Shown here piece by piece: positions 12,555 to 32,520 of a DNA stretch of 64,000 nt. Within the stretch, counting starts at the first letter, position 1; each line of letters begins with the position of its first letter. Below the pieces are notes generated by a model that had not been told where the DNA came from, did no database searches, and saw nothing but the letters and a program-made list of their open reading frames with translations. The stretch is from an uncultured Solirubrobacterales bacterium (GTDB lineage Bacteria; Actinomycetota; Thermoleophilia; Solirubrobacterales; 70-9), in NCBI GenBank assembly GCA_963749605.1, contig CAVVNN010000003.1, forward strand, positions 85,579 to 149,578. The letters run 5' to 3'. The position numbers were made by a program, and so were the translations under genes.

Positions 12555-12572
12555 CCGCTTAGTATCTCCAGC

Positions 12573-13457: not shown

Positions 13458-13467
13458 CCTGGGGCTC

Positions 13468-14265
13468 ATGTACCCGCACCTCCACGTCGGCCCGATCACC
13501 CTCCAGACCTTCGGCCTGATGTTCGCGCTGGCGTTCCTCGCCGCTGGGGCGCTGGTCTGGAAGCGGTTGGGGGAGATCGGCAAGCCGGTCGACTGGGCCT
13601 ATGAGATCGGGTTCTCGGCCCTGATCGGCGGCATCGTCGGCTCGCGCGTCTACTTCGTCGTCCAGAACTACAGCAGCGTCAAGCACGACCTCTTCGGCAC
13701 GCTCTTCTCCGGCTCCGGGCTGGTCTGGTACGGCGGCATCGCCGGCGGCGCCCTCGCCGTCGTGCTCTGGGCCTGGTACCGCGATTTCCTCCGCCTCACC
13801 CTGCTCGACCTGGCGGCGCCGGCGCTGGCGCTCGGCTACGCGATCGGCCGCGTCGGCTGCCAGCTCTCCGGCGACGGCGACTACGGCAAGCCGTGGAACG
13901 GGCCCTGGGCGATGTCCTACCCGCACGGCACGGTGCCCACCGACCGCACCGTCCACCCGACACCGGTCTACGAGACGCTGGCGATGGGCCTCGGCGCCTG
14001 GCTCCTCTGGCAGCTCCGCGACCGCTTCCGCGCCGGCGTCCTCTTTGCGATCTACCTGATCTATGCCGGGACCGAGCGTTTCCTGGTCGAGTTCATCCGG
14101 CGCAACAAGGAGGTCGCGCTCGGTCTCACCTCGGCGCAGCTCGAGAGCCTCGGGATGATGGTGATCGGCGCCATCTGGATCTACGCCGTGAAGCGCCGCT
14201 GCGGTAGCCTCGGGCGTCCCGATGGCAGGCTCAGAGCAGCAGACCCCGCAGGCTCCCGTGCCTGA
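13468..14265 (+). CDS. lgt: Prolipoprotein diacylglyceryl transferase
   Basis: Starts at ATG 13468. Multi-TM protein with Lgt-like YAIGRVGCQLSGDGDYG and FLVEFIR segments. Confidence 0.8.
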   Translation: MYPHLHVGPITLQTFGLMFALAFLAAGALVWKRLGEIGKPVDWAYEIGFSALIGGIVGSRVYFVVQNYSSVKHDLFGTLFSGSGLVWYGGIAGGALAVVLWAWYRDFLRLTLLDLAAPALALGYAIGRVGCQLSGDGDYGKPWNGPWAMSYPHGTVPTDRTVHPTPVYETLAMGLGAWLLWQLRDRFRAGVLFAIYLIYAGTERFLVEFIRRNKEVALGLTSAQLESLGMMVIGAIWIYAVKRRCGSLGRPDGRLRAADPAGSRA

Positions 14266-15073
14266 GACCGTCGGCGCAGCGGTCAACGCGGCGGCCGAGG
14301 CGATCGCCGCCGCGGGGTGCGAGGAGCCGCGCGCCGACGCGGAGGCGCTGGTCGCGGACGCGCTCGGCATCGGCGTCGAGGAGCTGGCCCGCGACGGCGC
14401 CGGCGAGCTGACTCCGGAGCTGGCGAGCGCGATCGAAGAGCGCGTGCGACGACGGGCGGACCACGAGCCGCTGGCCTACATCCTCGGCCGCGCCCCGTTC
14501 CGCGACCTCTCGATCGCCGTCGACTCGCGGGTGCTGTGGCCGCGCCGCGAGACCGAGCTGCTGGTCGAGGTCGGCGTCGAACTGCCCGAGGAGGCCCGCG
14601 TGCACGAGGTTGGCACCGGCTCCGGCGCGATCGCCCTGGCCCTGATCTCCGAGCGCCCCGACCTGCGGGTCACCGCCTCCGACCTCTCGCCCGAGGCTGC
14701 GGAAGCCGCCCGGGAGAACGCCGAGCGACTGGGCCTACAGCTCGAGGTGATCGTCGACGAGGGCCTGCCCGATCGGCTCGTGGACGAGGAGATCGACCTT
14801 GTCATCGCCAACCTTCCCTATGTCACCGACTCGACCATCTACGACCGTTCGCCCGAGATCCAACGTGAGCCGCGGATCGCGGTGACGGGCGATTGCGGAG
14901 AGGACGGGCTGGGAGTGATTCGTCGCCTGGTCGGCGAGGTGCGTTCCGGCCAGCGCCTGGCGCTCGAGCACGACACCCACCACGGCCCCGCGATGCGGGA
15001 GCTGCTGCGCGACGCCACCACGCTCACCGACCATGAAGGCGATGAGCGGGTGACAGTCGGCTTCGCCCCATGA
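14222..15073 (+). CDS. prmC: Release-factor glutamine N5-methyltransferase
   Basis: SAM motif VHEVGTGSGAIAL and NLPYV (an NPPY variant). N-terminal PrmC helical domain (PRADAEALVADALG). Confidence 0.85.
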   Translation: MAGSEQQTPQAPVPETVGAAVNAAAEAIAAAGCEEPRADAEALVADALGIGVEELARDGAGELTPELASAIEERVRRRADHEPLAYILGRAPFRDLSIAVDSRVLWPRRETELLVEVGVELPEEARVHEVGTGSGAIALALISERPDLRVTASDLSPEAAEAARENAERLGLQLEVIVDEGLPDRLVDEEIDLVIANLPYVTDSTIYDRSPEIQREPRIAVTGDCGEDGLGVIRRLVGEVRSGQRLALEHDTHHGPAMRELLRDATTLTDHEGDERVTVGFAP

Positions 15074-16554
15074 GCGAGGCTTCACCTGGCTCGACTGAGG
15101 CGGAGCGGCGGGCGAAGGCCGAGCGCCTGCGCGAGGAAGGGATCGACCCCTTCCCTCGCTCCTTCCCCGATCGCACCAAGATCGCCGAGATCCTCGGCGC
15201 GCACGACCCCGCCGGGCTGGGGGAGGGGGAGCACTCCGAGTTCTCCTACCGGATCGCCGGCCGGCTGACCGGGCAACGGAGCCACGGCAAGACCGCCTTC
15301 TTCGACGTTCGCGACCTCTCCGGCACGATCCAGGCGTATGCGCGCCGGGACGCGCTTGGGGAGGAGGCGTACGAGCGGATCGAGGACCTCGACATCGGCG
15401 ACGTCGTCGGCGTCGAGGGCGATCTCTACGTGACCAAGCGCGGCCAGCTCGCGCTCGAGGTCCGCGAGTGCACGCTGCTGGCGAAGGCGCTGCGCGACCC
15501 GCCCGACCTCTTCCACGGCATCTCCGACGTCGAGACTCGCTACCGGCAGCGGGAGCTGGACCTGATGGCCAACGAGCGCTCGCGCGAGGTCTTCGCGCTG
15601 CGGGCGAAGGTGCTGGCGGCGATCCGCGACCACATGAACGAGCGCGGCTACGTCGAGCTGGAAACGCCGATCCTGCAGCGGCTCACCGGCGGCGCCGCGG
15701 CGCGTCCGTTCAAAACGCACCACCACGCGCTCGACCGCCACCTCTTCCTGCGGATCGCGACCGAGCTCTACCTCAAGCGCGCCATTGTCGGCGGCTTCGA
15801 GGACGTCTACGAGCTGGGCAAGTTCTTCCGCAACGAGGGGATGTCGCCGCAGCACAACCCCGAGTTCACGATGCTCGAGTGGTTCGTCAGCGGCGTCGAC
15901 TACAACGGCGTGATGGCGTTTGCCGAGGAGCTCGTCGCCGGCGTCGTCGAGCGGGTCCTCGGCACGACGAAGGTCGAGCGCGACGGCGAGACGATCGACT
16001 TCGCGACCCCGTGGAAGCGGGTGACCGTGCGCGACGCGATCAAGGAGGAGACCGGCGTCGACGTCGTCGAGTCCAGCCGCGACGAGCTGGCCGAGCTGGT
16101 GGGGGCCGACGCCGAGCCCGGCGACGACTGGGCCGCCCTGGTCGACAGGCTGCAGGGCAAGCTGGTCGAGCCGAAGCTGACCCAGCCCACCTTCATCGTC
16201 GACCTCCCGCTCGCGCTCTGGCCGCTGGTGAAGCCGCAGCGAGAAGCGCCCGAGCTGCTCGGCGAGGCCTTCGACGGGATCGTCGCCGGGATGGAGATCG
16301 TCGGCGGCGGCACCGACGTCAACGACCCCGACGAACAGCGCCGCCACTTCGTCGAACAGCGCGAAAGGCAGGAGAAGGGCGCCGAGGAGAACCCGCACGA
16401 GCACGACGAGGAGTTCGTGCGCGCGCTCGAATACGGGATGCTGCCGGCCAGCGGCTGCGGCCTCGGCGTGGATCGCCTGATGATGATCCTGACCGGCTCG
16501 AAGACCCTCCGCGACGTGATCCTCTTCCCCTCGATGCGCGAGCAGGGGCCGTAG
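15070..16554 (+). CDS. lysS: Lysine--tRNA ligase (class II)
   Basis: OB anticodon-binding domain (KTAFFDVRDLSGTIQ) and class II motifs including GCGLGVDRLMMILTG. The ATGA overlaps prmC. Confidence 0.95.
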   Translation: MSEASPGSTEAERRAKAERLREEGIDPFPRSFPDRTKIAEILGAHDPAGLGEGEHSEFSYRIAGRLTGQRSHGKTAFFDVRDLSGTIQAYARRDALGEEAYERIEDLDIGDVVGVEGDLYVTKRGQLALEVRECTLLAKALRDPPDLFHGISDVETRYRQRELDLMANERSREVFALRAKVLAAIRDHMNERGYVELETPILQRLTGGAAARPFKTHHHALDRHLFLRIATELYLKRAIVGGFEDVYELGKFFRNEGMSPQHNPEFTMLEWFVSGVDYNGVMAFAEELVAGVVERVLGTTKVERDGETIDFATPWKRVTVRDAIKEETGVDVVESSRDELAELVGADAEPGDDWAALVDRLQGKLVEPKLTQPTFIVDLPLALWPLVKPQREAPELLGEAFDGIVAGMEIVGGGTDVNDPDEQRRHFVEQRERQEKGAEENPHEHDEEFVRALEYGMLPASGCGLGVDRLMMILTGSKTLRDVILFPSMREQGP

Positions 16555-16557
16555 GAC

Positions 16558-16577
16558 ACGGCGCGAGGCCGCGCCGT
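16558..16577 (+). terminator. GC hairpin downstream of lysS (no U-tract)
   Basis: ACGGCGCG-AGGC-CGCGCCGT: 8-bp stem with a 4-nt loop, starting 4 nt after the lysS stop. It lies between convergent genes. Confidence 0.4.
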
Positions 16578-16642
16578 CGGCTGCGCGCCGTGCGAAGCAC
16601 TGTCGCTCCGCCGCCGCCACGCCCTCGCTTGGTCCTACGACC

Positions 16643-17398
16643 TCAGGACGCTGAATGCAATAGGCCACCGTCGATCGGGATCACGGTGCCGGTGACGTAG
16701 GCGGCGCGCTCGGAGCAGAGGAAGGCGACGAGGTCGCCGTACTCCTCGGGGCGGCCCAGGCGCCCGGCCGGCACTTCGCTTCGCGCCGCCGCCTCGGCGG
16801 CCTCGATCGAACCGGCGTTTTCGGCGAGCCGCTCGGTGGCGAAACGCCCGGTGGCGACGGTGTTGACGGTGACCCCGTCGGCGGCGACCTCGCGCGAGAG
16901 CGTCTTGAGGAAGCCGACCGCCGCCATCCGGTGCGAGTTGGAGAGGTTGAGCCCCGGGATCGGCTCGCGCGTCGAGCTGGAGCCGACGTTGACGATCCGC
17001 CCCCAGCCGCGCTCGCGCATCCCCGGCACAACGGCGCCGGCGAGGATGCGCGGCGCCAGGACCAGCGAGCGGTAGGCCCGCTCCCACTCCTCCAGCTCGT
17101 GGTCGAGGGCGCCGCCCAACGGCGGGCCGCCGGTGTTGGCGACGAGGACGTCGAGCGGCCCGATCGCCGCCTCGACCTCACCCGGCAGCTCCGCCAGCCG
17201 GTCGAGGTCGGCCGCGTCGGCGACGAAGGCGCTCGCCTCGCCGTCGATAGCAGCGACCGCCTCCTCGAGCCGCTCACGCGAGCGGCTGGCGATCGCAACC
17301 CGGGCGCCTTCCCGCGCCAGGGCCGCGGCGATCGCCTCTCCGATCCCGCGACTGGCGCCCATCACCAGGGCGACGCGCCCCTCCAGCCCTAGATCCAC
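16643..17398 (-). CDS. Short-chain dehydrogenase/reductase (SDR) family oxidoreductase
   Basis: 251 aa from GTG 17396-17398 (VDLGLEGRVALVMGASRGIGEAIA, a TGxxxGxG-type motif). The longer track ORF reaching 17758 looks like a GC artefact. Confidence 0.8.
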   Translation of the reverse strand: MDLGLEGRVALVMGASRGIGEAIAAALAREGARVAIASRSRERLEEAVAAIDGEASAFVADAADLDRLAELPGEVEAAIGPLDVLVANTGGPPLGGALDHELEEWERAYRSLVLAPRILAGAVVPGMRERGWGRIVNVGSSSTREPIPGLNLSNSHRMAAVGFLKTLSREVAADGVTVNTVATGRFATERLAENAGSIEAAEAAARSEVPAGRLGRPEEYGDLVAFLCSERAAYVTGTVIPIDGGLLHSAS

Positions 17399-17751
17399 GT
17401 CGCCCCCGCGCCGGGCACCCGCGCACACAAAGCGGCGAACAGCCCCACGGCGACCAGGGCGCCGAGCCAGTGCAGGCCGAAGACGACCGCAATCGCGCTG
17501 ACCACTCCCGCCAGCACCGCCCACACCAGCGTCGGCCCCACCTCCAGCCCCACGACCCGAGCGGTGACCCAGGCGCAGAGCAGCCAGGCGGCCGGCCCCG
17601 CCAGCCACCCCCAGTCGACGAAGAACCCGTGCGAGAAGACGACCGCCAGCACCACGGACAGCAGCGCCACCGCAACCAGCTGCACCAGCGCCACCCGCCA
17701 GAAGATCGCCGACCTCACGGCCGGCATTCTCCCACCTACCTGCATAATCAA
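17389..17751 (-). CDS. Small hydrophobic membrane protein (hypothetical)
   Basis: 120-aa ORF with 3-4 clear TM segments. An alternative start lies at 17727. It overlaps the SDR start by 10 nt. Confidence 0.45.
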   Translation of the reverse strand: MIMQVGGRMPAVRSAIFWRVALVQLVAVALLSVVLAVVFSHGFFVDWGWLAGPAAWLLCAWVTARVVGLEVGPTLVWAVLAGVVSAIAVVFGLHWLGALVAVGLFAALCARVPGAGATWI

Positions 17752-17760
17752 TCGCCACCC

Positions 17761-17833
17761 GGGCGGTTAGCTCAGTTGGGAGAGCGCCTCCCTTACAAGG
17801 AGGAGGTCACTGGTTCGAGCCCAGTACCGCCCA
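17761..17833 (+). tRNA. tRNA-Val (anticodon TAC)
   Basis: Cloverleaf read by hand: acceptor GGGCGGT/ACCGCCC, D arm GCTC..GAGC, anticodon stem CCTCC/GGAGG with loop CTTACAA, T arm with GGTTCGAGCC. CCA is not encoded. Confidence 0.9.
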
Positions 17834-19644
17834 TTCCACTGCTTCGCTCCAGCACGAACAGTTGGAAGTAGGGGATCTGGGAGCTTTTCTGGTAGAGGAT
17901 CGGCAGCTCGTCTTTGCGGTCGGGGTCGGCCGCTGGCTCGTGCAGACCCTGGATCGTCAGACCGGCGTCGAGGAACAGTCGAGCCCAGGTCTCGGTAGTG
18001 CGATGGAAGGTCACGATGGACTCGATGACCGTGTCGCCGAGGGAATTCTCGCGCGACTTGGATACGGGCCCCTCGTCGAAATACTCCTCCAGCACGAACT
18101 CGCGATAGCGCCAGCGACCTTCGATGCGCTCCTTTCGCCAGCCCCCGCGATCCTTGATCGGGTGGGGCAGCGAGATCACCACCCGCCCCTTCGACGATGC
18201 CAGGCGAGCGATATCGGCGATCGTCGGCTGCGGATCCTCGAGATGGTCGAGGACGTTGAGGCAGAGAACGTCGTCGAACGGCCCTTCCAGCTCAATCGTC
18301 GGCACGTCCATGAGCGTGATGCGCTCGGACACGCCGGCCTCCTTTGCGCGCCGCTCCGCCAGCGCGAGCATCTTCTCTCTGGTGTCGATGGCAACCACGT
18401 CCGAGCCGGCCAGGGCGAGCCGGATGCTTTCGTGGCCGCTGCCACAGCCGATGTCGAGGACGCGGCGCCCCGGCGAGCCGGGTACGAGATGGCGCATGAG
18501 GGGATCGAGTACCAAGGCGTTCTGGGATGCTGTCTCGCGCTCCTCGGCGTAGATGTCGGCAAGAGTTGCGTCGCCGGTTGCGGCCCCGCCGCTCAACTCT
18601 CCGCAGGCTGGGCAGTCGGGCTCGCGCACGAAATCCTCGCGGTGCAGCTCGTAGGTCGTCGAATCGATGAGCAGTCGCTGGCCGATCGTCTGAACCGGCT
18701 GACCGAGTAGCCGGCGGATCACCTCGTTTGCCTGCACCGAGGCGACGAGTACGTTCAGGGGCCCCGTAGCTGGGCGCCTGATGCCGGCGGTTGAGGTTCT
18801 CCGGCGCGCTCCCCTCCCGATCCTGCAGGTCCGCCGTGGCGCGGATGCACGCGTAGCAGGCCGACTCCCCGGGAACGACCATCGGGCCGACGACGCCAAA
18901 GGCCTCGATGTAGCCGGCATTCGAGTAGGCGAAGCCGTGACGCAGTGCGGCGTCGTTCATCCAAAGGTGGACGTCGGGCGGGGAGTCGGCTGAAAGTACG
19001 ACCACGTCGCACTCGGCGAAGTGCTCGTCGAGCAGCTCGACCCCGTGGAACGCCGACCGCACTGGCTTCAGGGTGACCTCACCGTTCAGAGCTCGCAGCC
19101 GCTCGGCCGCGACCTCGACCTTCGGCCGACCGACGGCGCCCTCGTCAAACAGCGTCTGGCGGGTGAGGTTCGACAGCTCCACGTCATCGCCGTCGGAGAA
19201 GACGATTGTTCCGACACCCGCTGCGACCAGGGTCGTGGCGAGATTCGTGCCAATCCCGCCGGTGCCGACGAGGCCGACGGTGGCGCCGGCCAGCATCTCC
19301 TGGGCCTCCGAGCCGTTGGCCCCGATCAGGTCGTAGTAGAGGAGGTGGCGGGCGTAGCGACTGGTCGAATCCAGGTCGTCAGTGGCCAGCACGCCCGCCT
19401 CGAGCAGCTCGCCGAGCAGTTGCCTTGCCTGATCCTTGTCGAGGTTTGCCAAGCGCACGGCGTGCGCGATCGCCTCGTCTCGGGTGCGGGGTACCGAGAG
19501 GTAGGCGAGAAGCTCTGGCAGGCCGGGCGGAGCGTCCTCTATTTTGACCGCGCGAGGGGGAAGGGCTCCGACGAGGACGTCGCCGTCTAGCTGGAGAACC
19601 GAGAGGTACTGCGGGACGACCAGCGTGTCACGGGAGGCGTTCAC
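17793..19644 (-). pseudogene. MccB-like ThiF/E1 adenylyltransferase fused to a class I SAM methyltransferase, interrupted by a 1-nt frameshift
   Basis: The 18292-19644 frame holds an about 90-aa N-terminal domain, then E1 motifs GLVGTGGIG, DGDDVELSNLTRQ and a first CxxC (CYAC). The 17793-18920 frame continues the E1 fold (PLNVLVASVQANEVIRRLLG, second CxxC CPAC), then VLDIGCGSG and the rest of a methyltransferase. The frames switch in the GGGGCCCC run at 18758-18765. Confidence 0.8.
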
Positions 19645-19666
19645 GTTCGAGCGCTGGACGCCTCGC

Positions 19667-21496
19667 CTAATCCTCGGGTGCGCTGGAGGGTTCGCCGTCT
19701 TCGGCGGATTTAGGCGGCCGGATGAGCTTGAGGTTCAGCTCTCGCAGCCGCTCCGGGGGGATCGGCGCCGGCGCGGCCATCATCACGTCCTGGGCGCGCT
19801 GGTTCATCGGGAAGGCGATCACCTCGCGGATGTTGGGCTCGTCGGCGAGCAGCATCACGATCCGGTCGATGCCGGGGGCGACGCCGCCGTGCGGTGGCGC
19901 CCCGACGCGAAAGGCACGCCCGAGGGCGCCGAAGCGCTCGTCGACCTCCTGCTTGGAGTAGCCGGCGATTTCGAAGGCGCGGTAGAGGACGTCGGGGCGG
20001 TGGTTCCGGATCGCGCCGGAGGAGAGCTCGTAGCCGTTGCAGACGATGTCGTACTGGAAGGCCCTGACCTCGAGCGGGTCCGTCGTTTCGAGCGTGTCGA
20101 GGCCGCCCTGCGGCATCGAGAACGGGTTGTGGCTGAACCCGACCTCCCCGGTCTCCTCGTCCAGCTCATACATCGGGAAGTCGACGACCCAGCAGAACCG
20201 GTAGGCGCCCTGCTCGACCAAGCCGAGCGCCTGGCCGACGTGGTCGCGCATCGCGCCGAGCAGGCTGCGCGCCTTCTGCAGGCGGGCGTCGGAGATCATC
20301 AGCAGGGCGTCGCCCTCCTCGGCGCCGAGCGCGGCGATCGCCGCCTGCTGGACCTCGGGCGCCAGGTGGCGAGCCAGCGGCCCGCGGAGGGAGTTGCCGG
20401 GCTCGACGAAGAACCAGGCCAGGCCACCGGCGCCCAGCTCGCGCGCGAACTCGTCGAAGCGGTCCATGTCGGCCCGGGAGAGCTCGGGTTTGGGTATGCG
20501 CATGCCGGAGACGTGGCCGGCGCTGAGCGCGCGCACCCCCGAGTCGGCGAAGACGTCGGCGAGGTCGCGCATCTCGATCGGGATGCGCAGGTCCGGCTTG
20601 TCGGACCCGTAGCGCTCCATCGCCTCCTCGTAGGGGATGCGCGGAAAGGGCAGCGGCGTCGTCTCCCACTCCGGCCTCAGATCGGCGAACAGCCCGTGCA
20701 GCACGTCCTCGACCACCTCGAACACGTCCTCCTGCTCGACGAAGCTCATCTCGATATCGAGTTGGTAGAACTCGCCCGGAGAGCGGTCCGCGCGGGCGTC
20801 CTCGTCGCGGTAGCAGGGGGCGATCTGGAAGTAGCGGTCGAAGCCGGCGACCATCAGCAGCTGCTTGTACTGCTGCGGCGCCTGCGGCAGCGCGTAGAAC
20901 TTGCCCGGATGCACCCGGGAGGGAACGAGGTAGTCGCGAGCTCCCTCCGGGCTCGATGCGGTCAGCGTCGGGGTCTGCAGCTCGAGGAAGCCGTGGCGCT
21001 GCATCCGCTCGCGCAGGCTGGCGACGATCTTCGACCGCAGGACGACGTTCTCGTGCATGCGCGAGCGGCGCAGGTCCAGAAAGCGATATTGGAGGCGGCT
21101 TTCCTCCGGCGCGTCCTCCTCGGGGAAGACCGTGAACGGCAGCGGCTCCGCCGCGCCGAGCACCTCGGCCTGCCGGGCCTCGACCTCGACCTCTCCGGTG
21201 TCGATCGCGGGGTTGACCGTCTCGGGCGAGCGCGCGAGGACCGAGCCCTCGATTCGCAGCACGGTCTCCTTGGGAACGTGGGCGAGGTCGAGGTCGAGCT
21301 CGGAGCGGACCAGGATCTGCGTGATGCCGTAGTGATCGCGGAGGTCGAGGAACAGCACGCCGCCCAGGTCGCGGCGATTGTGGATCCAGCCGGTGAGGGC
21401 GACGTCCTCGCCGACGCGATCGGCGTTCAGCTCCCCGCACGTATGCGTGCGCATGCTCGTGGAAAGTTGCGCTTGGGGGCGGGGCTGCGGTGTCAT
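19667..21496 (-). CDS. aspS: Aspartate--tRNA ligase (bacterial type)
   Basis: FLDLRDHYGITQ (OB), QAPQQYKQLLM, GAD insertion domain and GGVAPGIDRIVMLL (motif 3). ATG 21454 (MRTHTCGEL) is an alternative start. The gene is intact. Confidence 0.95.
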   Translation of the reverse strand: MTPQPRPQAQLSTSMRTHTCGELNADRVGEDVALTGWIHNRRDLGGVLFLDLRDHYGITQILVRSELDLDLAHVPKETVLRIEGSVLARSPETVNPAIDTGEVEVEARQAEVLGAAEPLPFTVFPEEDAPEESRLQYRFLDLRRSRMHENVVLRSKIVASLRERMQRHGFLELQTPTLTASSPEGARDYLVPSRVHPGKFYALPQAPQQYKQLLMVAGFDRYFQIAPCYRDEDARADRSPGEFYQLDIEMSFVEQEDVFEVVEDVLHGLFADLRPEWETTPLPFPRIPYEEAMERYGSDKPDLRIPIEMRDLADVFADSGVRALSAGHVSGMRIPKPELSRADMDRFDEFARELGAGGLAWFFVEPGNSLRGPLARHLAPEVQQAAIAALGAEEGDALLMISDARLQKARSLLGAMRDHVGQALGLVEQGAYRFCWVVDFPMYELDEETGEVGFSHNPFSMPQGGLDTLETTDPLEVRAFQYDIVCNGYELSSGAIRNHRPDVLYRAFEIAGYSKQEVDERFGALGRAFRVGAPPHGGVAPGIDRIVMLLADEPNIREVIAFPMNQRAQDVMMAAPAPIPPERLRELNLKLIRPPKSAEDGEPSSAPED

Positions 21497-21649
21497 GTGA
21501 TTAGTGGCGCTGCGATCTGTGCGAGGCCGAGGGGCTTTGCAACGTACCTCAAAGATGCGGGTACGCGGCAGGCGCGCGGCGATGCTCGACTTGGGCTCGA
21601 CCCCGCTGTTACAGTCGCGTTGCAGTTAGTCAACCAATCGAGGTAGAAA

Positions 21650-21709
21650 GTGCTAAAAGTCACGAAGGTTCGCGGAATCCGCGGCGTTTCCAGCCTGGTT
21701 CGCAACTGA
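21650..21709 (+). CDS. Unannotated 19-codon ORF ending in Asn, candidate MccA-type precursor peptide
   Basis: In-frame TAG at 21644-21646, GAGG at 21640-21643, GTG at 21650. Peptide M(V)LKVTKVRGIRGVSSLVRN, TGA at 21707-21709. It ends 17 nt before the CmoA-like start. It is too short for the 60-aa ORF track. Confidence 0.5.
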   Translation: MLKVTKVRGIRGVSSLVRN

Positions 21710-21726
21710 GCAATCCCCTCGACCGC

Positions 21727-22422
21727 GTGCTGGCCGGCGATCGCTGGGAGTTCGACGATTCCGTCACTGCGGTATTCGAGAATATGTTGGAACGGTCGAT
21801 TCCCCAGTACGGGGAGATGCGTTCGGCGGTCGGCAGCCTCGCTGCTCACTTTGCAGCCGGCCGGCCGGCCGGCTGCGTAGTCGACCTCGGCTGCTCGCGC
21901 GGTGAGGCGATTGCAACGCTCGTGGACAGATTCGATGAAGACGCGACTTTCACCGGTGTGGAGGCCAGCCCATCCATGCTCGAGGCTGCCCGGAAGCGTT
22001 TCGCTCCCCACGACAACGTCGAGATCCTGGATCTCGACCTGCGATCCGAATATCCGACTGGGACCGCAAACGTGACGCTCGCCGTTCTGACCGTGCAGTT
22101 CATCCCAATCGAGTACCGACAGCAGCTCATCCAGCAGGTCTACGATCACACCGCGCGTGGCGGGGCGTTCATTCTGGTCGAGAAGGTCCTCGGCTCCACC
22201 GCGGAGCTCGACCGCATGATGGTGGCCTTCCACCTCGAGATGAAGCGTCGCAAGGGCTACTCGCAGGAGGAGATCGACCGCAAGCGTCTCTCCCTGGAGG
22301 GCGTTTTGGTACCAGTCACCGCGAAGTGGAACGTCGAAATGCTCGAAGCAGCGGGATTTCAGGAAATCGACTGCTTCTGGCGTTGGATGAACTTCGCGGG
22401 CTGGGTCGCAGTCCGCCATTGA
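21727..22422 (+). CDS. cmoA: Carboxy-S-adenosyl-L-methionine synthase (CmoA/MccS family)
   Basis: 231 aa, colinear with my recollection of E. coli CmoA: WEFDDSVTAVFENMLERSIPQY (cf. [22 protein letters not shown]), DLGCS, LTVQF, KRRKGYSQEEIDRKRLSLEGV, CFWRWMNFAGWVAV. Confidence 0.8.
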   Translation: MLAGDRWEFDDSVTAVFENMLERSIPQYGEMRSAVGSLAAHFAAGRPAGCVVDLGCSRGEAIATLVDRFDEDATFTGVEASPSMLEAARKRFAPHDNVEILDLDLRSEYPTGTANVTLAVLTVQFIPIEYRQQLIQQVYDHTARGGAFILVEKVLGSTAELDRMMVAFHLEMKRRKGYSQEEIDRKRLSLEGVLVPVTAKWNVEMLEAAGFQEIDCFWRWMNFAGWVAVRH

Positions 22423-22438
22423 GGTCGCCGCTCGGGGC

Positions 22439-23285
22439 TCAGGGGGCGCTGGGGCGCAGCTCGGGGGTCCTGGTGCCGCCGCGGCGGCGCTCGGCCTCGG
22501 TTACCACGTCGAAGAAGACGTCGTTGCGGCCGCGCCGCAGCGGACGGGGGAAAAGGCGGCGCGCACGGCGGTGCGAGGCGGCGAGCGGCGCGGAAGCTCG
22601 CCTCGTGCGCGCCGCTCCAGCGGATGCCGAAGATCTCGCGCACCCGCGGCGGCAGCGTTCCCTTGATGATGTGGTTCTGGACCGCGATGTTGCCCCGGGC
22701 GGCGGCCGGCACCGGCTGGCGGAAGGCGACCAGCGGCGCCATCTCCAGCGCGTGCTCGGTCGCCTGCAGGTCGGGTGAGGCGAGCTTCCCGTCCCACCAG
22801 CCGCTGGAACTCGAGGTGGCTGGCCGGCACCTCGCTGCGCGGCAGCCCGAACAGCTCGCCGAAGCGCACGTAGTCCTGCCAGAGGTCCTCGCGCTCGCCC
22901 TCGCTCAGCGGCCGCACCATCGTCTCGTACATCGCCCGCCCGGAGTCGGCGATCACCGCCAGCGTCCACAGCATCAGCTCCGGGTCGAAGGCCGAGTAGG
23001 CGGCGCCGGCGGGGTGGGCGCCGGCCGCCTCGGGCAGCGTCCCCTCGACCGTCTCGTGCAGGCGGTGGACCTTGGCCAGCGCCTCGTCGGCCTCCTCGCG
23101 GCGTGCCGAGGAAGATCGTCTCCTGGATCTTCGCCGTGCGGGCGAGCCGCTCGAAGGGCCGGTCGCCGGAGCGGGTGCGAGAGCATCGTGCCGGTGTAGG
23201 TGAGCGGTTCCAGCGCCCCGATCAGCAGCGCCCGCTGGCCGTAGAGCAGGCCGACCGAGCGCTCGCCGTGGACGCGGCGCGCCAT
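22439..23285 (-). pseudogene. DUF2236 / MpaB-type oxygenase family gene broken by about 4 frameshifts
   Basis: A coherent protein can be followed only by switching frames at about 23168, 23097, 22803 and 22590: ...GQRALLIGALEPLTYTGTMLSHP / SGDRPFERLARTAKIQETIFLGT / EEADEALAKVHRLHETVEG...HLEFQRL / WDGKLASPDLQATEHALEMAPLVAF...FGIRW / LAASHRRARRLFPRPLRRGRNDVFFDVV. Confidence 0.75.
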
Positions 23286-24912
23286 CGAGCGCCCCGGGGG
23301 GAAGTAGTGGTCTTCGCTCTCCGAGGTCGGTCACGCCAGCCGCGGATGCTACTCCGCGTAGGTGGCGCTGACCGCCATCTGCCAGAGCCGGTACGGGCGC
23401 GCGGCGCTTCCTGCAGCTCGTGAGCGGCGAAGATCTCGTCGAGGTCCTCGCGGGTGAGCGTCTCGCGCTCGAGCGCGTTCGCGGCGAGGTCGTCGAGGCA
23501 CTCGCGGTTCCCGCCCAGCAGCGCGCGGGCGCGGCGGTAGGCCTCGCGCGCCAGCGTCATCGCCGCCACGTCGACGTCGCGCCGGGTGCGGTCGGAGAGC
23601 GCGTAGTCGCCGGTCGGCAGCGCGATCGGCGGCGGGCCGTCGGCGTCGAGCGCGACGCCCATCCCGAACTCGCCGACCATCTGCTTGCAGACCGAGTGCA
23701 CCCGGGCCAGGTCGTCGACCGCGCCCGGAGTAGGACTCGCCGAACACCTCCTCCTCGGCGGCGCGCCCGCCCAGCAGGGTGACGATCTCGTCGAGCAGCT
23801 CGTCGCGCGACTTCAGGTAGGTGTCCTCCTGCGGCGAGTGGCCGACGAAGCCGAGCGCCGGCCCGCGCGGGACGATGCTGAGGATCTCCGGCGGGTCGAG
23901 GCCGAGCAGCCGCCGGCAGAGGGCGTGCCCCGCCTCGTGGTAGGCGACGATCCGCCGCTCCTTCGAGCTCAGTCGCCGCGCCTGCTGGGAGCCGACCGAC
24001 TGGCGCAGCAGCGCCTCGTCGAGGTCCTCGCGGGCGATCGCGTCGCGCTCCGCCCGCCCGGCGATGATCGCCGCCTCGTTGAGCGCGTTGGCGAGCTGGG
24101 CGCCGGTCATCCCGGTCGTCTTGCGGGCGACGTCGGTGAGGTCGAGGTCGGGGCCGAGCGGCTTGCCCTTGGCGTGCGCGCGCAGGATCGCCTCGCGGCC
24201 GTCGCGGTCCGGCGGCGCGACCAGCACCTGGCGGTCGAAGCGCCCGGGTCGCAACAGCGCGCTGGTCGAGCTTGTCGACGTAGTTGGAGGCGGCGATCAC
24301 GATCACCGTCCCCGGGTCGCGCTCGAAGCCGTCGAGCTCGACCAGCAGCTGGTTCAGCGCCTGCTCGCGCTCGCTGGTGCCACCGTCGCCGCTGCCGCCG
24401 CTGCGCGCTCCCCCGACCGCGTCGAGCTCGTCGATGAAGATCACCGCGCGCCCGGACTTGCGCGCCTCCTTGAACAGCCGCCTGATCCGGGCGGCGCCCC
24501 TGCCCACGAACATCTCGACGAAGCTCGAGCCGGAGGCCGAGAAGAAGTCGACGCCGGCCTGCGCGGCGACGGCTCGCGCCAGCATCGTCTTGCCCGTCCC
24601 CGGGGGGCCGTAGAGAAGCACGCCGCGCGGCGGCTGCGCCCCGAGCGCCGCGAAGCGGTCGGGGTCGCGCAGCCACTCGGCCACGTCCATCAGCTCGTCC
24701 TTGGCTGCGTCGACCCCCTGCACCTCCTCCCACAGCACCGGCTTGGTCTGGCTCGCCTTCACCGTCTCCGGCTTGGTCGTGCCCATCGTCCCCCGCAGCA
24801 GTTTGAGGAAGACGAGCAGCAGCCCGCACATGAAGAAGACCCCGAAAACGGGGTACCAGTCGAAGAAGAAGCTCTGGATTTCGCTTGCCGCGAGTGCCTG
24901 CGTCAGGTGCAT
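23222..24912 (-). pseudogene. FtsH-like AAA+ zinc metalloprotease paralogue (single N-terminal TM) broken by 2 frameshifts; 3' boundary uncertain
   Basis: Frame 1: TM helix, Walker A GPPGTGKT, Walker B IFIDELD. Frame 2, from about 24260: [18 protein letters not shown] zinc motif. Frame 3, from about 23722: [21 protein letters not shown]. Each junction looks like one extra C before GCG. Confidence 0.8.
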
Positions 24913-25028
24913 CCGCCCTGCCTATCGATTGGGCTGCCTAGTCAAAAGTGTCAAGGCAGTGTGGGTACAAAGCCCTCCGGCTCCAATCGCACATGTGTCC
25001 ATAGCCATGCGTCCAGAGCGTAGGCGTG

Positions 25029-25790
25029 CTAGCGCCGTTCGACCTGTGAGCCGCCGACGATGGCCTCCTCGCCGCTGTCTGCGAAGACGATCCAGGCCTT
25101 GTTGCCGCCGTCGTAGTCGGGGGCCCACAGCTTCAGCGTGGCGTCGCGGCCCCAGACGGTGCAGGGCTCCTCGACAGGCTCCTCCAGCCCGCGCCAGACT
25201 CGCACGAATGCGTTGCCGTCCCACTCCTCCCCGATCGTGGTCGGCTCGCGGTGGCCCGGGTGGACGCGGGTCTCGGGCGGCAGCTTCATCAGCCGCTCCA
25301 TCACCGAGGACCGCAGGTCGGCGAAGCCGCTTGCTCCCGGCGCCATCGTCCCCCCGACCGTGCCCTTGAAGAGGACGTCGGCGGTGAAGACGTCGGTGCC
25401 GTCGATGAGGTAGGCGAGGTGGCCGGACGCGTGGCCGGGGGTGAATATCGCCTCGATCTCGAGCCCGCCGGCGTCCAGCCTCTCGCCGTCGCCGAGCGTC
25501 ACCGCGACCTCTTCGTCGAGCTCCGCCGCGGCCGCCTCGTGGGCCACCAGCGGCGGGCCGCCCAGCCGCTTGCGCGCCTCGGCCAGGCCGGCGACGTGGT
25601 CGAGGTGGGGGTGGGTGACGAGGACGTGGGTGATCTCGATTCCCTCGCGCTCGGCCCGCTCGAGCAGCGGGTCCAGCCTGTCGTTGCCGTCGATCAGGAC
25701 ACCCTTGCCGCTCTCCGGGTTGGCGACGAGGTAGGCGTTCGACAGCCACTGCGGGTTCTCGGTGCGCTCGACGATCACCGTCTCAACCAT
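25029..25790 (-). CDS. MBL-fold metallo-hydrolase
   Basis: 253 aa from ATG 25788-25790, with the THPHLDH (HxHxDH) motif. The upstream part of the 371-aa track ORF is discarded. Confidence 0.85.
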   Translation of the reverse strand: MVETVIVERTENPQWLSNAYLVANPESGKGVLIDGNDRLDPLLERAEREGIEITHVLVTHPHLDHVAGLAEARKRLGGPPLVAHEAAAAELDEEVAVTLGDGERLDAGGLEIEAIFTPGHASGHLAYLIDGTDVFTADVLFKGTVGGTMAPGASGFADLRSSVMERLMKLPPETRVHPGHREPTTIGEEWDGNAFVRVWRGLEEPVEEPCTVWGRDATLKLWAPDYDGGNKAWIVFADSGEEAIVGGSQVERR

Positions 25791-26574
25791 ATGGCTTGTA
25801 GACAAGGCGGTGGCCGAGCAGCTGGGTGACGGTCTCGAAGCCGTAGCCCCGCGCCCGCAGCGTGTCGATGACCTGCGGCAGCGCCGCCAGCGTCTCGCTT
25901 CGGTCTCCGCCGCCGTCGTGCATGAGGACGATCGAGCCCGGCTGCGTCGTGGCGACGATGGTGCTGTAGATCGCGCCGGCGCCTGGGGTCGACCAGTCGG
26001 CTGGGTCGACGTCCCAGGTGATCGTTCGCATCCCGAGGCTGCCCGCGGTGGAGACGACGCTGGAGTCGAGGGCTCCGCCCGGCGGGCGGAAGAGGCAGGG
26101 CTCGAAGTGGGTGTAGGCCTCGATCCGGGAGCTGGCGCCGGCAATCTGGGAGTAGCCGGGGTATGAGACGTGGTTCATCGTGTGGTCGCCGATCTCGTCG
26201 CCTTCGGCGAGGATCTGGCGCATCGTCGCTTCGCGCCCCGTCATCTCCTGGCCGATCTCGAAGAAGGTGCCGTTGACGTGCTTTTCGCGCAGCACCTGCA
26301 GGAAGGTGGGCGTGTATTCGCTCGGCCCGTCGTCGAAGGTGAGGGCAACGACCTTGCGCCCGCGCGGCCCGTTGGTGTCCAGCCCAGCCGTGCCGCCGGT
26401 GCAGCCGGCCGGGCGCACCGGGCGCAGGCGAAAGGTGCGGGCGCCGCTGGCGGGCAGGCTCTCCTGTCCAGCCAGCACCCGCCAGCGATAGCGGTGCGGC
26501 GCAAGCCCGGCATCGGCGGGCAGCAGCGAGACGACGAGCTCACCCGCGCTCGGTCGCTTCACCCGGGCGGGCAC
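25783..26574 (-). CDS. Polysaccharide deacetylase (NodB/CE4); true N-terminus probably further upstream
   Basis: NodB motifs TFDDGP and HTMNH. The frame stays open for about 120 more codons upstream, to 26943, and encodes a signal-peptide-like segment but no ATG/GTG/TTG (see findings). Confidence 0.8.
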   Translation of the reverse strand: MPARVKRPSAGELVVSLLPADAGLAPHRYRWRVLAGQESLPASGARTFRLRPVRPAGCTGGTAGLDTNGPRGRKVVALTFDDGPSEYTPTFLQVLREKHVNGTFFEIGQEMTGREATMRQILAEGDEIGDHTMNHVSYPGYSQIAGASSRIEAYTHFEPCLFRPPGGALDSSVVSTAGSLGMRTITWDVDPADWSTPGAGAIYSTIVATTQPGSIVLMHDGGGDRSETLAALPQVIDTLRARGYGFETVTQLLGHRLVYKPYG

Positions 26575-26943
26575 CGTGTCCCTGCCGGTCGTCTTGCCGG
26601 AGGCGTTGACCAGCTCCAGCCCCAGCCGCCGCCGCGCGGCGCTGCCGCCGAGGCAGAGGCGCCGTTCGCCCTTGCCGCCGGCCCGACGCAGCTCCAGGCA
26701 GAGGTAGGGACCGCCCCCGCCCGTGACGTTCGGCAGCGGGTCGAGCTTCGCGAGCGCCGTCGGCGCCGCCGTCCGCAGGGCGAAGACCAGGTTCTGCCCC
26801 GCCTGCGAGAGCTTGGCGCGCAGCAGGTCAGGCGCTTGCGCCTTCGCGCCGGAGCTGCCGGCGGCCGCTCCTGGGGCGCAGGCCAGCGCGGCGAGGGCGA
26901 TGCAGGCGATGCGGAGGATCTGGCGAGAGTGGGGGATGGTCGG

Positions 26944-27795: not shown

Positions 27796-27875
27796 CGCCG
27801 CGCAGGGTAAGCGACCGAGCCGGATGCGCTAGCGTTGGCGCCCCGGCTACCGCCCAAGGCCCAGCCGGACTTCTC

Positions 27876-27949
<74 letters not shown>

Positions 27950-28184
27950 CTCCACGCAAAGCCATTTCCAAAGCGGAGTTCAGACTTTCTTTCGCTTCCA
28001 GAGGTTCTCTCCAAATTCTCATGGGTACCACATTTGGGTACCAACCTGAGGCGAAATTGCACGCACCCTCGCTTGGTTCTAGCCATGAGCTGCGCGTCCA
28101 GCCCCGGCCGGTTTCCCAAGGGCTGCGGGATAGGGCGTCGGGATTGCAAAGCCCAGACAAACAGCGCTTGACCTTGGTTCGGCT

Positions 28185-28202
28185 TCAATTGTTTGGACCG
28201 AT
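28185..28202 (+). repeat. Direct repeat copy 1 (TCAATTGTTTGGACCGAT)
   Basis: 17/18 identical to 32829-32846. Weaker similarity extends about 40 nt upstream of both copies. Confidence 0.7.
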
Positions 28203-28324
28203 CTATCTCTAGACACCGCTTCATCAAGCCAAAAATAAGGCGGGTCAGAGTTGGGTCCACCTCGAGCCGCGCCGAGGCCTTATTGCCGCTGGCATCGGAC
28301 TGACGCACCGCCCCTCAGCGCCCG

Positions 28325-31099: not shown

Positions 31100-31250
31100 G
31101 GGTCACAAGTTTGGGCCTGCAGATTTGGCTTTCTAGAGCCGCAAGCGGTTGCGCCCTGAACAGGACTCGAACGGTGCGACCTACTCCTTTTAGGAGGGAG
31201 TCGGTCATCCTCGTGCCTTGGGATGCCTTGCAGGCGAGTGCAACAATTCT

Positions 31251-32501: not shown

Positions 32502-32520
32502 TTTGGCTCTAAAAAAGGAC

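What the first reader, a model, noticed from the sequence alone, without database searches (positions are those of the whole stretch)
19667..21496. aspS, the gene for the cellular target of processed microcin C, sits inside the candidate locus
Seen: aspS is 22 nt upstream of, and co-directional with, the MccB-like gene. It is divergent from the mccA-like/CmoA-like pair across a 230-bp intergenic region.

Established: processed microcin C is a non-hydrolysable aspartyl-adenylate mimic that inhibits AspRS.

Inference: the arrangement could be a target-linked self-resistance or dosage arrangement, as seen for duplicated targets in other biosynthetic clusters. It could also be pure coincidence if an accessory locus inserted next to a housekeeping gene. 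aspS is the only gene in 17.8-24.9 kb that is both essential and fully intact.
Basis: inference. Interest (0 to 1): 0.65.

Follow-up and report, generated by a model that had tools for sequence, protein, structure and literature searches.

The report
Target gene aspS inside microcin-C-like cluster
In this soil actinobacterium the gene for aspartyl-tRNA synthetase, the enzyme that microcin-C-type antibiotics poison, sits in the middle of a microcin-C-like gene cluster; relatives keep the same pairing, so it is not chance, but reviewers of the field have already noted the pattern and its protective role is untested.

Summary
aspS (19667-21496, minus strand) lies 22 nt upstream of a MccB-type ThiF-methyltransferase gene. 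It is divergent from a 19-codon mccA (MLKVTKVRGIRGVSSLVRN) and a CmoA/MccS gene.

The linkage is not coincidence. All six testable loci of this MccB clade (window, L004-L007, L099) have aspS directly beside mccB, with unrelated flanks and shuffled gene order. AspRS, MccB and MccS co-diverge. Twelve more distant MccB-methyltransferase loci have no aspS. Three of them (Streptomyces-type) carry the proven immunity peptidase MccG in the slot just upstream of mccB.

aspS is not a foreign or divergent duplicate. It is the clade's ordinary AspRS ortholog. Two about 96 % identical relatives (L001, L103) keep it in the same synteny but lack both mcc segments.

The "only intact gene" remark does not hold. 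The frameshifts in neighbouring genes are probably assembly errors: no independent short-read contig that covers a checked site shows the extra base.

The most likely function is target-linked self-protection, by co-expression or a tolerant enzyme. This is unproven. A 2021 review already notes aspS genes in actinobacterial mcc clusters, so this is a new member of a known kind.

The parts
19667..21496 (-). aspS: bacterial-type aspartyl-tRNA synthetase, 609 aa (595 aa if the Met at codon 15 is the start). It is the predicted target of the cluster's processed product.
   Evidence: NF001750 774 bits and TIGR00459 600 bits; Pfam OB-fold, class II core and GAD. 96 % identical to the syntenic AspRS of the mcc-free relatives L001 and L103.
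17793..19644 (-). mccB: ThiF-like peptide nucleotidyltransferase fused to a C-terminal (carboxy)methyltransferase domain. In the window it is broken by one extra base at about 18762. Its last 40 nt overlap tRNA-Val.
   Evidence: After removing one base it aligns end to end with homologs, 44 % identical to B. amyloliquefaciens MccB, with the invariant SYGPLN restored. Best PDB hits are E. coli MccB 3h5a/3h5n/6om4 at E 2e-42, against ThiF at 2e-24. A short-read contig lacks the extra base.
21650..21709 (+). mccA: 19-codon precursor peptide MLKVTKVRGIRGVSSLVRN with a C-terminal Asn.
   Evidence: A homologous 19-aa ORF ending in VRN, preceded by a GGAG-type ribosome-binding site, is present in L004, L005, L006 and L007. 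It has the same length and N-terminal MLK(I/V)xKV as B. amyloliquefaciens MccA (PMC6594144).
21727..22422 (+). mccS: CmoA-like carboxy-SAM synthase, the donor for the MccB methyltransferase domain.
   Evidence: TIGR00740 E 8e-46 (156.6 bits, below the 193.3 equivalog cut-off). PDB 4gek E. coli CmoA E 7e-31. 64-71 % identical copies lie in the clusters of L004, L006, L007 and L099.
21497..21649 (.). Divergent control region between aspS and mccA. Putative mccA promoter: -35 TCGACT at 21586-21591 and -10 TACAGT at 21610-21615. Possible aspS -10 TACGTT on the minus strand at 21546-21541.
   Evidence: The -35/-10 pair upstream of mccA is conserved in position in L004 (TGGACG/TACGGT) and L005 (TTGACC/TATCGT). 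The consensus scan found no E. coli-type promoter. The promoter assignment is inference.
17761..17833 (+). tRNA-Val(UAC): the boundary of the mccB segment and a variable insertion site.
   Evidence: ARAGORN and Rfam. Homology with L001 and L103 stops exactly at the tRNA 3' end. L103 has 30 nt between aspS and the tRNA. L001 has a different island there plus a 10-nt tRNA remnant.
21506..22450 (.). Segment carrying mccA, mccS and the aspS promoter region. It is absent from L001 and L103 (BLAST breakpoints 21511-22446) and is bounded by a 6-nt direct repeat (AGCGCC on the aspS-sense strand, at 21506-21511 and 22445-22450).
   Evidence: BLAST breakpoints and junction sequences. A metagenome contig joins 21497 to 22447 directly.

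Best explanation
The window holds a compact microcin-C-like gene cluster of the carboxymethyl-cytidine type, built around the organism's own aspS.

Inferred by homology to the Bacillus amyloliquefaciens and Nocardia vaccinii systems:
- mccA encodes a 19-residue peptide ending in Asn.
- MccB attaches a nucleotide to that Asn through a P-N bond.
- Once the peptide is degraded, the product is a non-hydrolysable aspartyl-nucleotide that blocks AspRS.

Shown here:
- aspS is the clade's ordinary AspRS ortholog.
- It lies directly upstream of mccB, apparently in one operon.
- It faces mccA-mccS across a conserved divergent promoter region.
- The pairing is kept in every testable relative that has this MccB type.
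- None of the known McC immunity genes or exporters is present in five of the six loci.

Inferred mechanism: the arrangement protects the producer. It ties the supply of the target enzyme to expression of the toxin-making enzyme (titration by dosage). The AspRS may also be intrinsically tolerant. The pairing also ensures that cluster and protection are inherited together.

Relatives L001 and L103 lost the mcc genes on both sides and kept aspS. This fits aspS being a core gene of the clade.
For: Cluster identity:
- MccB homology.
- Conserved mccA.
- CmoA/MccS.

Linkage:
- aspS is adjacent to mccB in the window, L004, L005, L006, L007 and L099. Flanks differ, and both co-directional and divergent orders occur.
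- The aspS-mccB gap is 22 nt or about 22 nt in the window, L004, L005 and L099, and 4 nt in L007.
- Pairwise identities of AspRS, MccB and MccS are congruent across loci.

Contrast with other clades:
- Twelve distant MccB-methyltransferase loci (32-48 % identity) have no aspS.
- L100 and the Streptomyces loci L101/L102 instead carry an MFS pump, and an S51 peptidase directly upstream of mccB. The S51 peptidase MccG is an experimentally shown immunity protein (PMC9239234).
- No MFS, S51 or GNAT homolog was found in the window, L004, L006, L007 or L099.

Native status of aspS.

Literature: aspS genes in actinobacterial mcc clusters have been proposed as immunity genes by analogy with abmK and agnB2 (PMC8323819).
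Against: - No experiment or sequence feature here shows protection.
- AspRS has no substitution specific to mcc-linked copies. Its unusual active-site motifs (QAPQ, SHNPF, ELSSGAIRNH) are shared by all 189 compared AspRS sequences, which come from many bacteria, none of them known to carry an mcc cluster.
- If aspS is the only copy and is vertically inherited, physical linkage is not needed for resistance, so something else may maintain it.
- No exporter lies near any of the six clusters. That is odd for a secreted antibiotic.
- The six loci share ancestry, so they are not six independent events.
- aspS copy number in the genome could not be determined.
Confidence: 0.55

Rival explanations
1. 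Classical duplicated-target resistance. The cluster-borne aspS is an extra, inhibitor-insensitive paralog (like AgnB2, AbmK or MupM), and a sensitive housekeeping aspS lies elsewhere in the genome.
For: - This is the model proposed in the literature for aspS in actinobacterial mcc clusters (PMC8323819).
- In L007 the aspS-mcc block is flanked by IS110 and DDE transposases, as expected for mobile cargo.
- The genome outside the 64-kb window was not available.
- All solved AspRS structures have different active-site motifs from this enzyme.
Against: - The linked AspRS genes do not form a separate divergent clade. They are interspersed with AspRS from mcc-free contexts (L001, L002, L003, L103).
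- Indirect count: of about 23 AspRS clusters of this clade on contigs longer than 10 kb, only three share a contig length with a fused MccB. This AspRS type therefore behaves as a core gene.
- L001 and L103 deleted the mcc genes on both sides but kept aspS, fused into the upstream operon.
- aspS divergence equals that of the flanks.
Confidence: 0.15
2. Coincidence. An accessory mcc locus happened to insert next to a housekeeping aspS beside a tRNA insertion hotspot.
For: - tRNA-Val is a variable site: L001 carries another island there.
- Close relatives have the same aspS synteny without mcc genes.
- A 6-nt direct repeat flanks the mccA-mccS segment.
Against: - The mcc genes lie on both sides of aspS, which would need two precise insertions.
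- The same aspS-mccB adjacency occurs in five other loci with unrelated flanks and no tRNA-Val.
- The mccA-aspS intergenic region is homologous in the window, L004 and L005.
- The three proteins co-diverge.
Confidence: 0.05
3. Internal regulation rather than warfare. With no exporter, the peptidyl-nucleotide acts inside the producer as a brake on its own AspRS, for example triggering a stringent response or dormancy. Linkage to aspS sets the toxin-to-target ratio, as in a toxin-antitoxin pair.
For: - No MccC-type pump or other transporter was found in the window or in any of the five related loci.
- The minimal characterised mcc clusters always include a pump (PMC8323819).
- mccB appears to share an operon with aspS.
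Against: - An exporter could be encoded elsewhere.
- All characterised McC-like compounds are secreted Trojan-horse antibiotics.
- The 19-residue MccA resembles the Bacillus peptide, which serves as an uptake carrier.
- There is no direct evidence for this reading.
Confidence: 0.15
4. Biosynthetic role. AspRS supplies an activated aspartyl intermediate to the pathway, as the SerRS AbmK does for albomycin.
For: AbmK is a precedent for an aaRS that both feeds biosynthesis and gives immunity (PMC8323819).
Against: - MccA ends in Asn in all loci.
- Characterised MccB enzymes build the aspartamidyl-nucleotide directly from that Asn, without an aaRS.
- Related clusters in Streptomyces, Bacillus and Nocardia work without an aspS (PMC9239234).
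Confidence: 0.05

Closest known systems
Bacillus amyloliquefaciens mcc cluster (peptide-carboxymethyl-cytidine antibiotic: MccA 19 aa, MccB with C-terminal carboxymethyltransferase, MccS = CmoA homolog, MccC pump)
   Same: - MccB is 44-45 % identical over its full length, including the fused methyltransferase domain.
- A CmoA-like MccS is present.
- The precursor is 19 aa with N-terminal MLK(I/V)xKV and a C-terminal Asn.
   Different: - No MccC exporter is nearby.
- aspS is embedded between mccA-mccS and mccB.
- The host is a high-GC Thermoleophilia-like actinobacterium.
- The product has not been characterised.
Nocardia vaccinii / Mycobacteroides abscessus / Streptomyces mcc clusters with the MccG (S51 peptidase) immunity gene
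   Same: - Same MccB-methyltransferase family (44-47 % identity) with a CmoA-like gene and YqcI/YcgG-like genes.
- In L100 and the Streptomyces loci L101/L102 the immunity gene sits directly upstream of mccB.
   Different: - The slot upstream of mccB holds aspS instead of the S51 peptidase.
- There is no MFS pump and no Orn/DAP-decarboxylase gene.
Actinobacterial mcc-like clusters containing an AspRS gene, noted in Travin, Severinov and Dubiley 2021 (PMC8323819, Fig. 6 item 19)
   Same: - An aspS gene lies inside a carboxymethyl-cytidine-type mcc cluster of an actinobacterium.
- Self-immunity is the proposed role.
   Different: - The review gives one sentence and no test, and its species list was not available to me.
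- Here the linked aspS is shown to be the clade's core ortholog, retained after cluster loss. It is not a demonstrably extra copy.
Self-resistance aminoacyl-tRNA synthetases in antibiotic clusters: AgnB2 (LeuRS, agrocin 84), AbmK (SerRS, albomycin), MupM (IleRS, mupirocin)
   Same: - The gene for the antibiotic's target enzyme is kept inside the biosynthetic cluster.
- The antibiotic is a Trojan-horse aminoacyl-nucleotide mimic.
   Different: - Those are second, divergent, inhibitor-insensitive paralogs that sit beside a sensitive housekeeping enzyme.
- No second copy, divergence or insensitivity is shown here.

Membership tests
Microcin-C-like peptidyl-nucleotide cluster, carboxymethyl-cytidine subgroup | MccB: ThiF-like nucleotidyltransferase with an N-terminal peptide-binding domain and Zn-binding cysteine pairs | tested here: met
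   PDB best hits are MccB 3h5a/3h5n/6om4 at E 2e-42. ThiF Pfam E 3e-39. TIGR03882 leader-peptide-binding hit. C263, C266 and C344 are invariant and C347 nearly invariant.
Microcin-C-like peptidyl-nucleotide cluster, carboxymethyl-cytidine subgroup | C-terminal SAM-dependent (carboxy)methyltransferase domain fused to MccB | tested here: met
   Full-length alignment with B. amyloliquefaciens MccB and 11 relatives. Methyltransferase Pfam hits and weak CmoB hits. The frame is interrupted in the window by one base that a short-read contig lacks.
Microcin-C-like peptidyl-nucleotide cluster, carboxymethyl-cytidine subgroup | MccS: CmoA-type carboxy-SAM synthase in the cluster | tested here: met
   TIGR00740 E 8e-46 (below the equivalog cut-off); PDB 4gek E 7e-31. 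It co-occurs with MccB in L004, L006, L007, L099 and in distant loci.
Microcin-C-like peptidyl-nucleotide cluster, carboxymethyl-cytidine subgroup | Short precursor peptide gene whose product ends in Asn | tested here: met
   A 19-aa ORF ending in VRN, with a ribosome-binding site, is conserved in five loci.
Microcin-C-like peptidyl-nucleotide cluster, carboxymethyl-cytidine subgroup | Dedicated export pump (MccC, MFS) in the cluster | tested here: not met
   No homolog of the Streptomyces cluster MFS pump was found in the whole window or in L004-L007 and L099. Unknown neighbouring ORFs have no transporter domains.
Microcin-C-like peptidyl-nucleotide cluster, carboxymethyl-cytidine subgroup | Product is a peptidyl-nucleotide whose processed form inhibits AspRS | not testable with these tools
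   Inferred from homologs characterised in B. amyloliquefaciens and N. vaccinii (PMC12250964, PMC9239234).
Cluster-borne self-resistance aminoacyl-tRNA synthetase (AgnB2 / AbmK / MupM type) | Gene for the antibiotic's target synthetase lies inside the cluster and travels with it | tested here: met
   aspS is adjacent to mccB in 6 of 6 testable loci of the clade, with unrelated flanks. The proteins co-diverge.
Cluster-borne self-resistance aminoacyl-tRNA synthetase (AgnB2 / AbmK / MupM type) | It is an additional copy beside a housekeeping synthetase | not testable with these tools
   Only 64 kb of the genome is available, and it holds one AspRS. An exact look-up of the protein found no record.
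Cluster-borne self-resistance aminoacyl-tRNA synthetase (AgnB2 / AbmK / MupM type) | Cluster copy is phylogenetically distinct from the lineage's housekeeping enzyme | tested here: not met
   Linked AspRS genes are scattered among unlinked ones in the tree. The window copy is 96 % identical to the syntenic, mcc-free L001 and L103 copies.
Cluster-borne self-resistance aminoacyl-tRNA synthetase (AgnB2 / AbmK / MupM type) | Active-site changes or measured insensitivity to the inhibitor | tested here: inconclusive
   Motif differences from E. coli, Thermus and Mycobacterium AspRS exist (QSPQ>QAPQ, HHPF>HNPF, GGGS>SSGA, a one-residue insertion in the motif 2 loop). They are shared by all 189 compared sequences, none of which is known to carry an mcc cluster. 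Sensitivity cannot be computed.
Bacterial-type aspartyl-tRNA synthetase | N-terminal OB anticodon-binding domain, class II catalytic core with motifs 2 and 3, GAD insertion domain | tested here: met
   Pfam PF01336, PF00152 and PF02938; NF001750 774 bits. Motifs are intact.

The most novel reading that the evidence does not exclude
The aspS in the cluster is the organism's only AspRS. On this reading an essential housekeeping gene has become a structural part of the operon that makes its own inhibitor. Protection would come from coupled expression, or from a clade-wide tolerant AspRS subfamily, and not from a spare resistant paralog. No exporter was found, so the compound may even act mainly as an internal brake on translation. 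When the cluster decays, aspS stays behind as the only trace, as in L001 and L103.
Probability: 0.25. Interest if true: 0.7.

Novelty: new member of a known kind. Interest (0 to 1): 0.45.

Why it matters
Microcin-C-type compounds are Trojan-horse inhibitors of AspRS. The known producer defences are efflux, acetylation (MccE), peptidases (MccF, MccG) and a phosphoramidase (MccH). A target-gene-based defence has been suggested in one sentence of a review but, in the papers I could search, never tested.

This clade is a clean test case. It has a minimal cluster (mccA, mccB, mccS), no other recognisable immunity gene, and aspS in the slot where related clusters keep their immunity gene. Natural "before and after" relatives that lost the cluster are also available.

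If the AspRS, or simply its co-expression, protects the producer, that would add a new immunity mode for this antibiotic class. It would also point to AspRS features that determine sensitivity to aspartyl-nucleotide mimics. If it does not protect, the conserved pairing needs another explanation.

Tried and rejected
1. Genome-collection scan with AspRS. The 80 loci served later as a comparison set, and none has MccB or CmoA nearby.
2. Exact look-up of the window's 609-aa AspRS found no record.
3. T-box or other riboswitch upstream of aspS: an Rfam scan of 17-23 kb found only tRNA-Val.
4. E. coli-type promoter and terminator scan: nothing above background.
5. CmoA-like gene and methyltransferase domain as tRNA cmo5U enzymes for the adjacent tRNA-Val(UAC). 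Rejected: both are absent from L001 and L103, which keep the tRNA, and they always accompany mccA and mccB.
6. Pseudogenised, decaying cluster. Rejected: the frameshifts are not supported by independent contigs.
7. Active-site substitutions specific to the clade or to mcc-linked copies: none found. The differing conserved positions lie mostly in the GAD domain or are shared with outgroups.
8. Plasmid collection search with MccB: only E. coli and Salmonella McC plasmids at 35 % identity over the ThiF domain, and no actinobacterial aspS-mcc plasmid.
9. Insertion versus deletion at the junctions. Both the 6-nt repeat and the sequence at the tRNA side are ambiguous on their own. Secondary loss in L001 and L103 is inferred from the phylogenetic distribution, not from the junctions.
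10. The metagenome scan with the MccB alignment gave only 11 loci. One was close (L088) but is truncated at the mccB 5' end, so it is uninformative for aspS.
Full report
**What is there**

The window is high-GC DNA (about 70 %). Its best protein matches are to uncultured Thermoleophilia and Solirubrobacterales-type actinobacteria from soil.

ORF 19667-21496 (minus strand) encodes a 609-aa bacterial-type AspRS. It scores 774 bits on NF001750 against a cut-off of 443, and it has the OB-fold, class II core and GAD domains.

Twenty-two nucleotides downstream, on the same strand, a ThiF-family gene starts (GTG at 19644). It continues after one frameshift into a methyltransferase domain and ends at 17793, overlapping tRNA-Val(UAC) (17761-17833) by 40 nt.

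On the other side, 230 nt separate the aspS start from a CmoA-like gene (21727-22422, plus strand). Inside that gap lies a 19-codon ORF with a GAGG ribosome-binding site: MLKVTKVRGIRGVSSLVRN (21650-21709).

**The neighbours are a genuine microcin-C-like cluster**

- Removing one base from the GGGGCCCC run at about 18762 gives a 616-aa protein. It aligns end to end with about 600-aa homologs, including Bacillus amyloliquefaciens MccB at 44 % identity. The invariant SYGPLN motif and the Zn-binding cysteine pairs are restored.
- Its best solved-structure matches are E. coli MccB (E 2e-42), well ahead of ThiF (2e-24).
- The CmoA-like protein matches E. coli CmoA (4gek, E 7e-31) and TIGR00740 (E 8e-46).
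- The 19-aa peptide is conserved in length, in N-terminal MLK(I/V)xKV and in C-terminal VRN in four other loci. It resembles the Bacillus precursor fMLKIRKVKIVRAQNGHYT-N (PMC6594144).
- In the Bacillus and Nocardia systems this gene set makes a peptidyl-carboxymethyl-cytidylate whose processed form inhibits AspRS (PMC12250964, PMC9239234). That chemistry is inferred here, not shown.

**The frameshifts are probably not real**

- The only short-read metagenome contig that spans the mccB frameshift has no mismatch over 211 nt and lacks the extra base.
- Relative to relative L001, the MpaB-like and FtsH-like stretch carries 13 insertions between 22586 and 24954, twelve of 1 nt and one of 2 nt, and none in aspS.
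- At the sites covered by independent contigs, the covering contigs listed lack the extra base. One of them has a single mismatch in 244 nt.
- The two outermost sites (24914, 24954) are non-coding, and one contig shows no gap there, so they may be real differences.
- The statement that aspS is the only intact gene therefore reflects local assembly errors.

**aspS is native**

- A contig from another metagenome (L001, AspRS 96 % identical) is collinear with the window from 12001 to 27952. Identity is 95.1 % on the left flank, 96.3 % across aspS and 96.0 % on the right flank. L001 lacks exactly two segments: 17834-19645 (mccB) and 21511-22446 (mccA, mccS and the aspS upstream region).
- A second relative (L103, 96.4 %, on a 983-kb contig) is the empty form. 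The MpaB stop overlaps the aspS start (ATGA), and 30 nt after the aspS stop comes tRNA-Val.
- L001 carries an unrelated island integrated into tRNA-Val, with a 10-nt remnant of the tRNA end.
- The window contains a single AspRS.

**The pairing is nevertheless not chance**

Every other locus of this MccB clade (59-72 % identity) for which the upstream side is available has aspS as the immediate neighbour of mccB.

| Locus | Order |
|---|---|
| L004 | mccS<-yqcI<-mccA<- then ->aspS->mccB |
| L005 | GNAT<-mccA<- then ->aspS->mccB |
| L006 | <-aspS then ->mccB->mccA->tailoring genes->yqcI->mccS |
| L007 | IS110, aspS->mccB->mccA->...->mccS, followed by transposases |
| L099 | aspS->mccB->...->yqcI->mccS |

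- The outer flanks are unrelated in all six loci, and only the window has tRNA-Val.
- Pairwise identities of AspRS, MccB and MccS give the same grouping: window with L004, L007 with L099, and L006 nearer the latter pair.
- The mccA-aspS intergenic region of the window, L004 and L005 is homologous and holds a conserved -35/-10 pair in front of mccA.
- Twelve more distant MccB-methyltransferase loci (32-48 % identity) have no aspS, although six of them carry a CmoA-like gene detectable with the window's protein.
- Three of those loci (one metagenome locus, L100, and two copies in a Streptomyces genome) carry an MFS pump, and an S51 peptidase directly upstream of mccB. The S51 peptidase MccG is an experimentally shown immunity protein (PMC9239234).
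- In the Thermoleophilia clusters that slot is occupied by aspS. No MFS, S51 or GNAT homolog occurs in the window, L004, L006, L007 or L099. Only L005 has a RimL/MccE-type acetyltransferase.

**How the two facts fit**

- In a neighbour-joining tree of the 70 closest AspRS sequences, the mcc-linked copies are scattered among copies from mcc-free contexts (L001, L002, L003).
- Matching contig lengths between the AspRS and MccB hit lists suggests that only about one in six AspRS genes of this clade on contigs longer than 10 kb has an MccB on the same contig. This is indirect.
- So this AspRS is a core gene of the clade, the mcc cluster is accessory, and where the cluster exists it sits at aspS.
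- The most economical history is an old association, co-inherited or co-transferred, with repeated loss of the mcc genes. L001 and L103 would be recent losers.
- The junctions are ambiguous on their own. A 6-nt direct repeat (AGCGCC) bounds the mccA-mccS segment where L103 has a single GGCGTC. That fits either deletion between short repeats or insertion.

**Active site**

- Compared with the structurally characterised AspRS of E. coli, Thermus, Mycobacterium and Pseudomonas, the window enzyme differs in several catalytic-core motifs: QSPQ>QAPQ, RQP-EFTQ>RSPGEFYQ, HHPF>HNPF and E(V)GGGSIRIH>ELSSGAIRNH.
- All of these variants are shared by the 189 AspRS sequences compared. These come from Streptomyces, sphingomonads, Rickettsiales, Lentisphaerae, Acidobacteria and other groups, and none is known to be mcc-linked.
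- Positions that separate the Thermoleophilia clade from the rest lie mostly in the GAD insertion domain or are shared with outgroups.
- Nothing marks the mcc-linked copies as specially adapted. Whether the whole subfamily is less sensitive cannot be computed.

**Interpretation**

The best-supported reading is target-linked self-protection. The enzyme that the product poisons appears to be co-transcribed with the enzyme that makes the poison, and the pair faces the precursor gene across a shared control region. Protection could come from dosage, from a tolerant enzyme, or from both.

- The classical "spare resistant paralog" model is disfavoured by the phylogeny and by the retention of aspS after cluster loss. 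It is not excluded, because the rest of the genome was not available.
- The absence of any exporter keeps open an internal regulatory role for the compound.
- A biosynthetic role for AspRS is unlikely, because MccA ends in Asn and related clusters need no aaRS.

**Prior knowledge**

Travin, Severinov and Dubiley (PMC8323819) state that several actinobacterial mcc-like clusters include an AspRS gene that "may provide resistance" by analogy with abmK and agnB2. I found no experimental follow-up in the searchable literature.

The finding is therefore a new member of a known, still untested, kind. What this analysis adds:
- the linkage is strictly conserved in this clade;
- aspS replaces the known immunity gene positionally;
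- the linked aspS is the clade's core ortholog, not a demonstrable duplicate.

Noticed in passing
window 22586-24954: 13 insertions relative to L001 (twelve of 1 nt, one of 2 nt), concentrated in the MpaB-like and FtsH-like genes, with none in aspS. At the sites covered by independent short-read contigs the extra base is missing. This looks like a locally badly polished stretch of a long-read metagenome assembly, possibly a strain mixture. In run X1 the mcc-region contigs match at 99.5 % or better, but the contigs of this stretch match at only about 96-98 %.
   Followed up: yes
window 28000-47000: Low-GC (57-66 %) island starting right after tRNA-Asp (27876-27950). It looks like a defence or mobile island. 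It encodes a 924-aa PHP + AAA_21/AAA_15 ATPase, an AAA_14/DUF4143 ATPase, DUF5131, a DprA/SLOG-like protein, an 1187-aa Type ISP/MmeI-like methyltransferase-restriction protein and a sulfotransferase. L001 is collinear with the window only up to position 27952, the tRNA-Asp end; what follows tRNA-Asp in L001 was not compared.
   Followed up: partly
L001 11852-13986: A different 2.1-kb island (an HTH_17 protein of 240 aa and a 248-aa protein) is integrated into tRNA-Val in the close relative. It supplies a new 3' half of the tRNA and leaves a 10-nt remnant, TGGGCGGTAC, next to aspS. tRNA-Val is therefore an active integration site in this lineage.
   Followed up: partly
window 19667-21496 (AspRS residues 203-212, 228-252, 454-462, 489-500): The AspRS belongs to a subfamily whose catalytic-core motifs differ from every solved AspRS structure (QAPQ, RSPGEFYQLD with a one-residue insertion, SHNPF, ELSSGAIRNH). 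The subfamily is widespread (Streptomyces, Sphingomonadales, Rickettsiales, Lentisphaerae, Acidobacteria). Its GAD domain has lost several otherwise conserved Phe and Arg residues in the Thermoleophilia clade.
   Followed up: partly
L005 583-1176; L006 9051-15053; L007 and L099 downstream of mccB: Related clusters carry extra genes that the window lacks. L005 has a RimL/MccE-type GNAT next to mccA. All five related loci have a YqcI/YcgG-like protein. L006, L007 and L099 have a 215-aa methyltransferase. L006 also has a GDSL-type hydrolase, a carbamoyltransferase (MccY-like) and a further methyltransferase. The window has the minimal set.
   Followed up: partly
L007 126-1211 and 11120-13664: The aspS-mcc block of L007 is bracketed by an IS110 transposase upstream and by DDE transposases, a Dcm-type methylase and an RHH protein downstream. 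In at least one organism aspS may therefore be riding on mobile DNA.
   Followed up: no
window 17793-17833: The mccB reading frame runs 40 nt into the tRNA-Val gene on the opposite strand, giving about 12 extra C-terminal residues compared with homologs. All conserved C-terminal residues (PYFQLFVLE) lie before the overlap.
   Followed up: yes
window 54000-58000: A second low-GC stretch (56-60 %), preceded by strongly negative GC skew at 53-54 kb. It was not examined.
   Followed up: no
window 15070-16554 and 27876-27950: lysS (another class IIb synthetase) lies 3 kb from aspS, and tRNA-Asp lies 6.4 kb away. Both are equally present in the mcc-free relatives L001 and L103 and absent from the other linked loci, so they are ordinary synteny and not part of the cluster.
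   Followed up: yes
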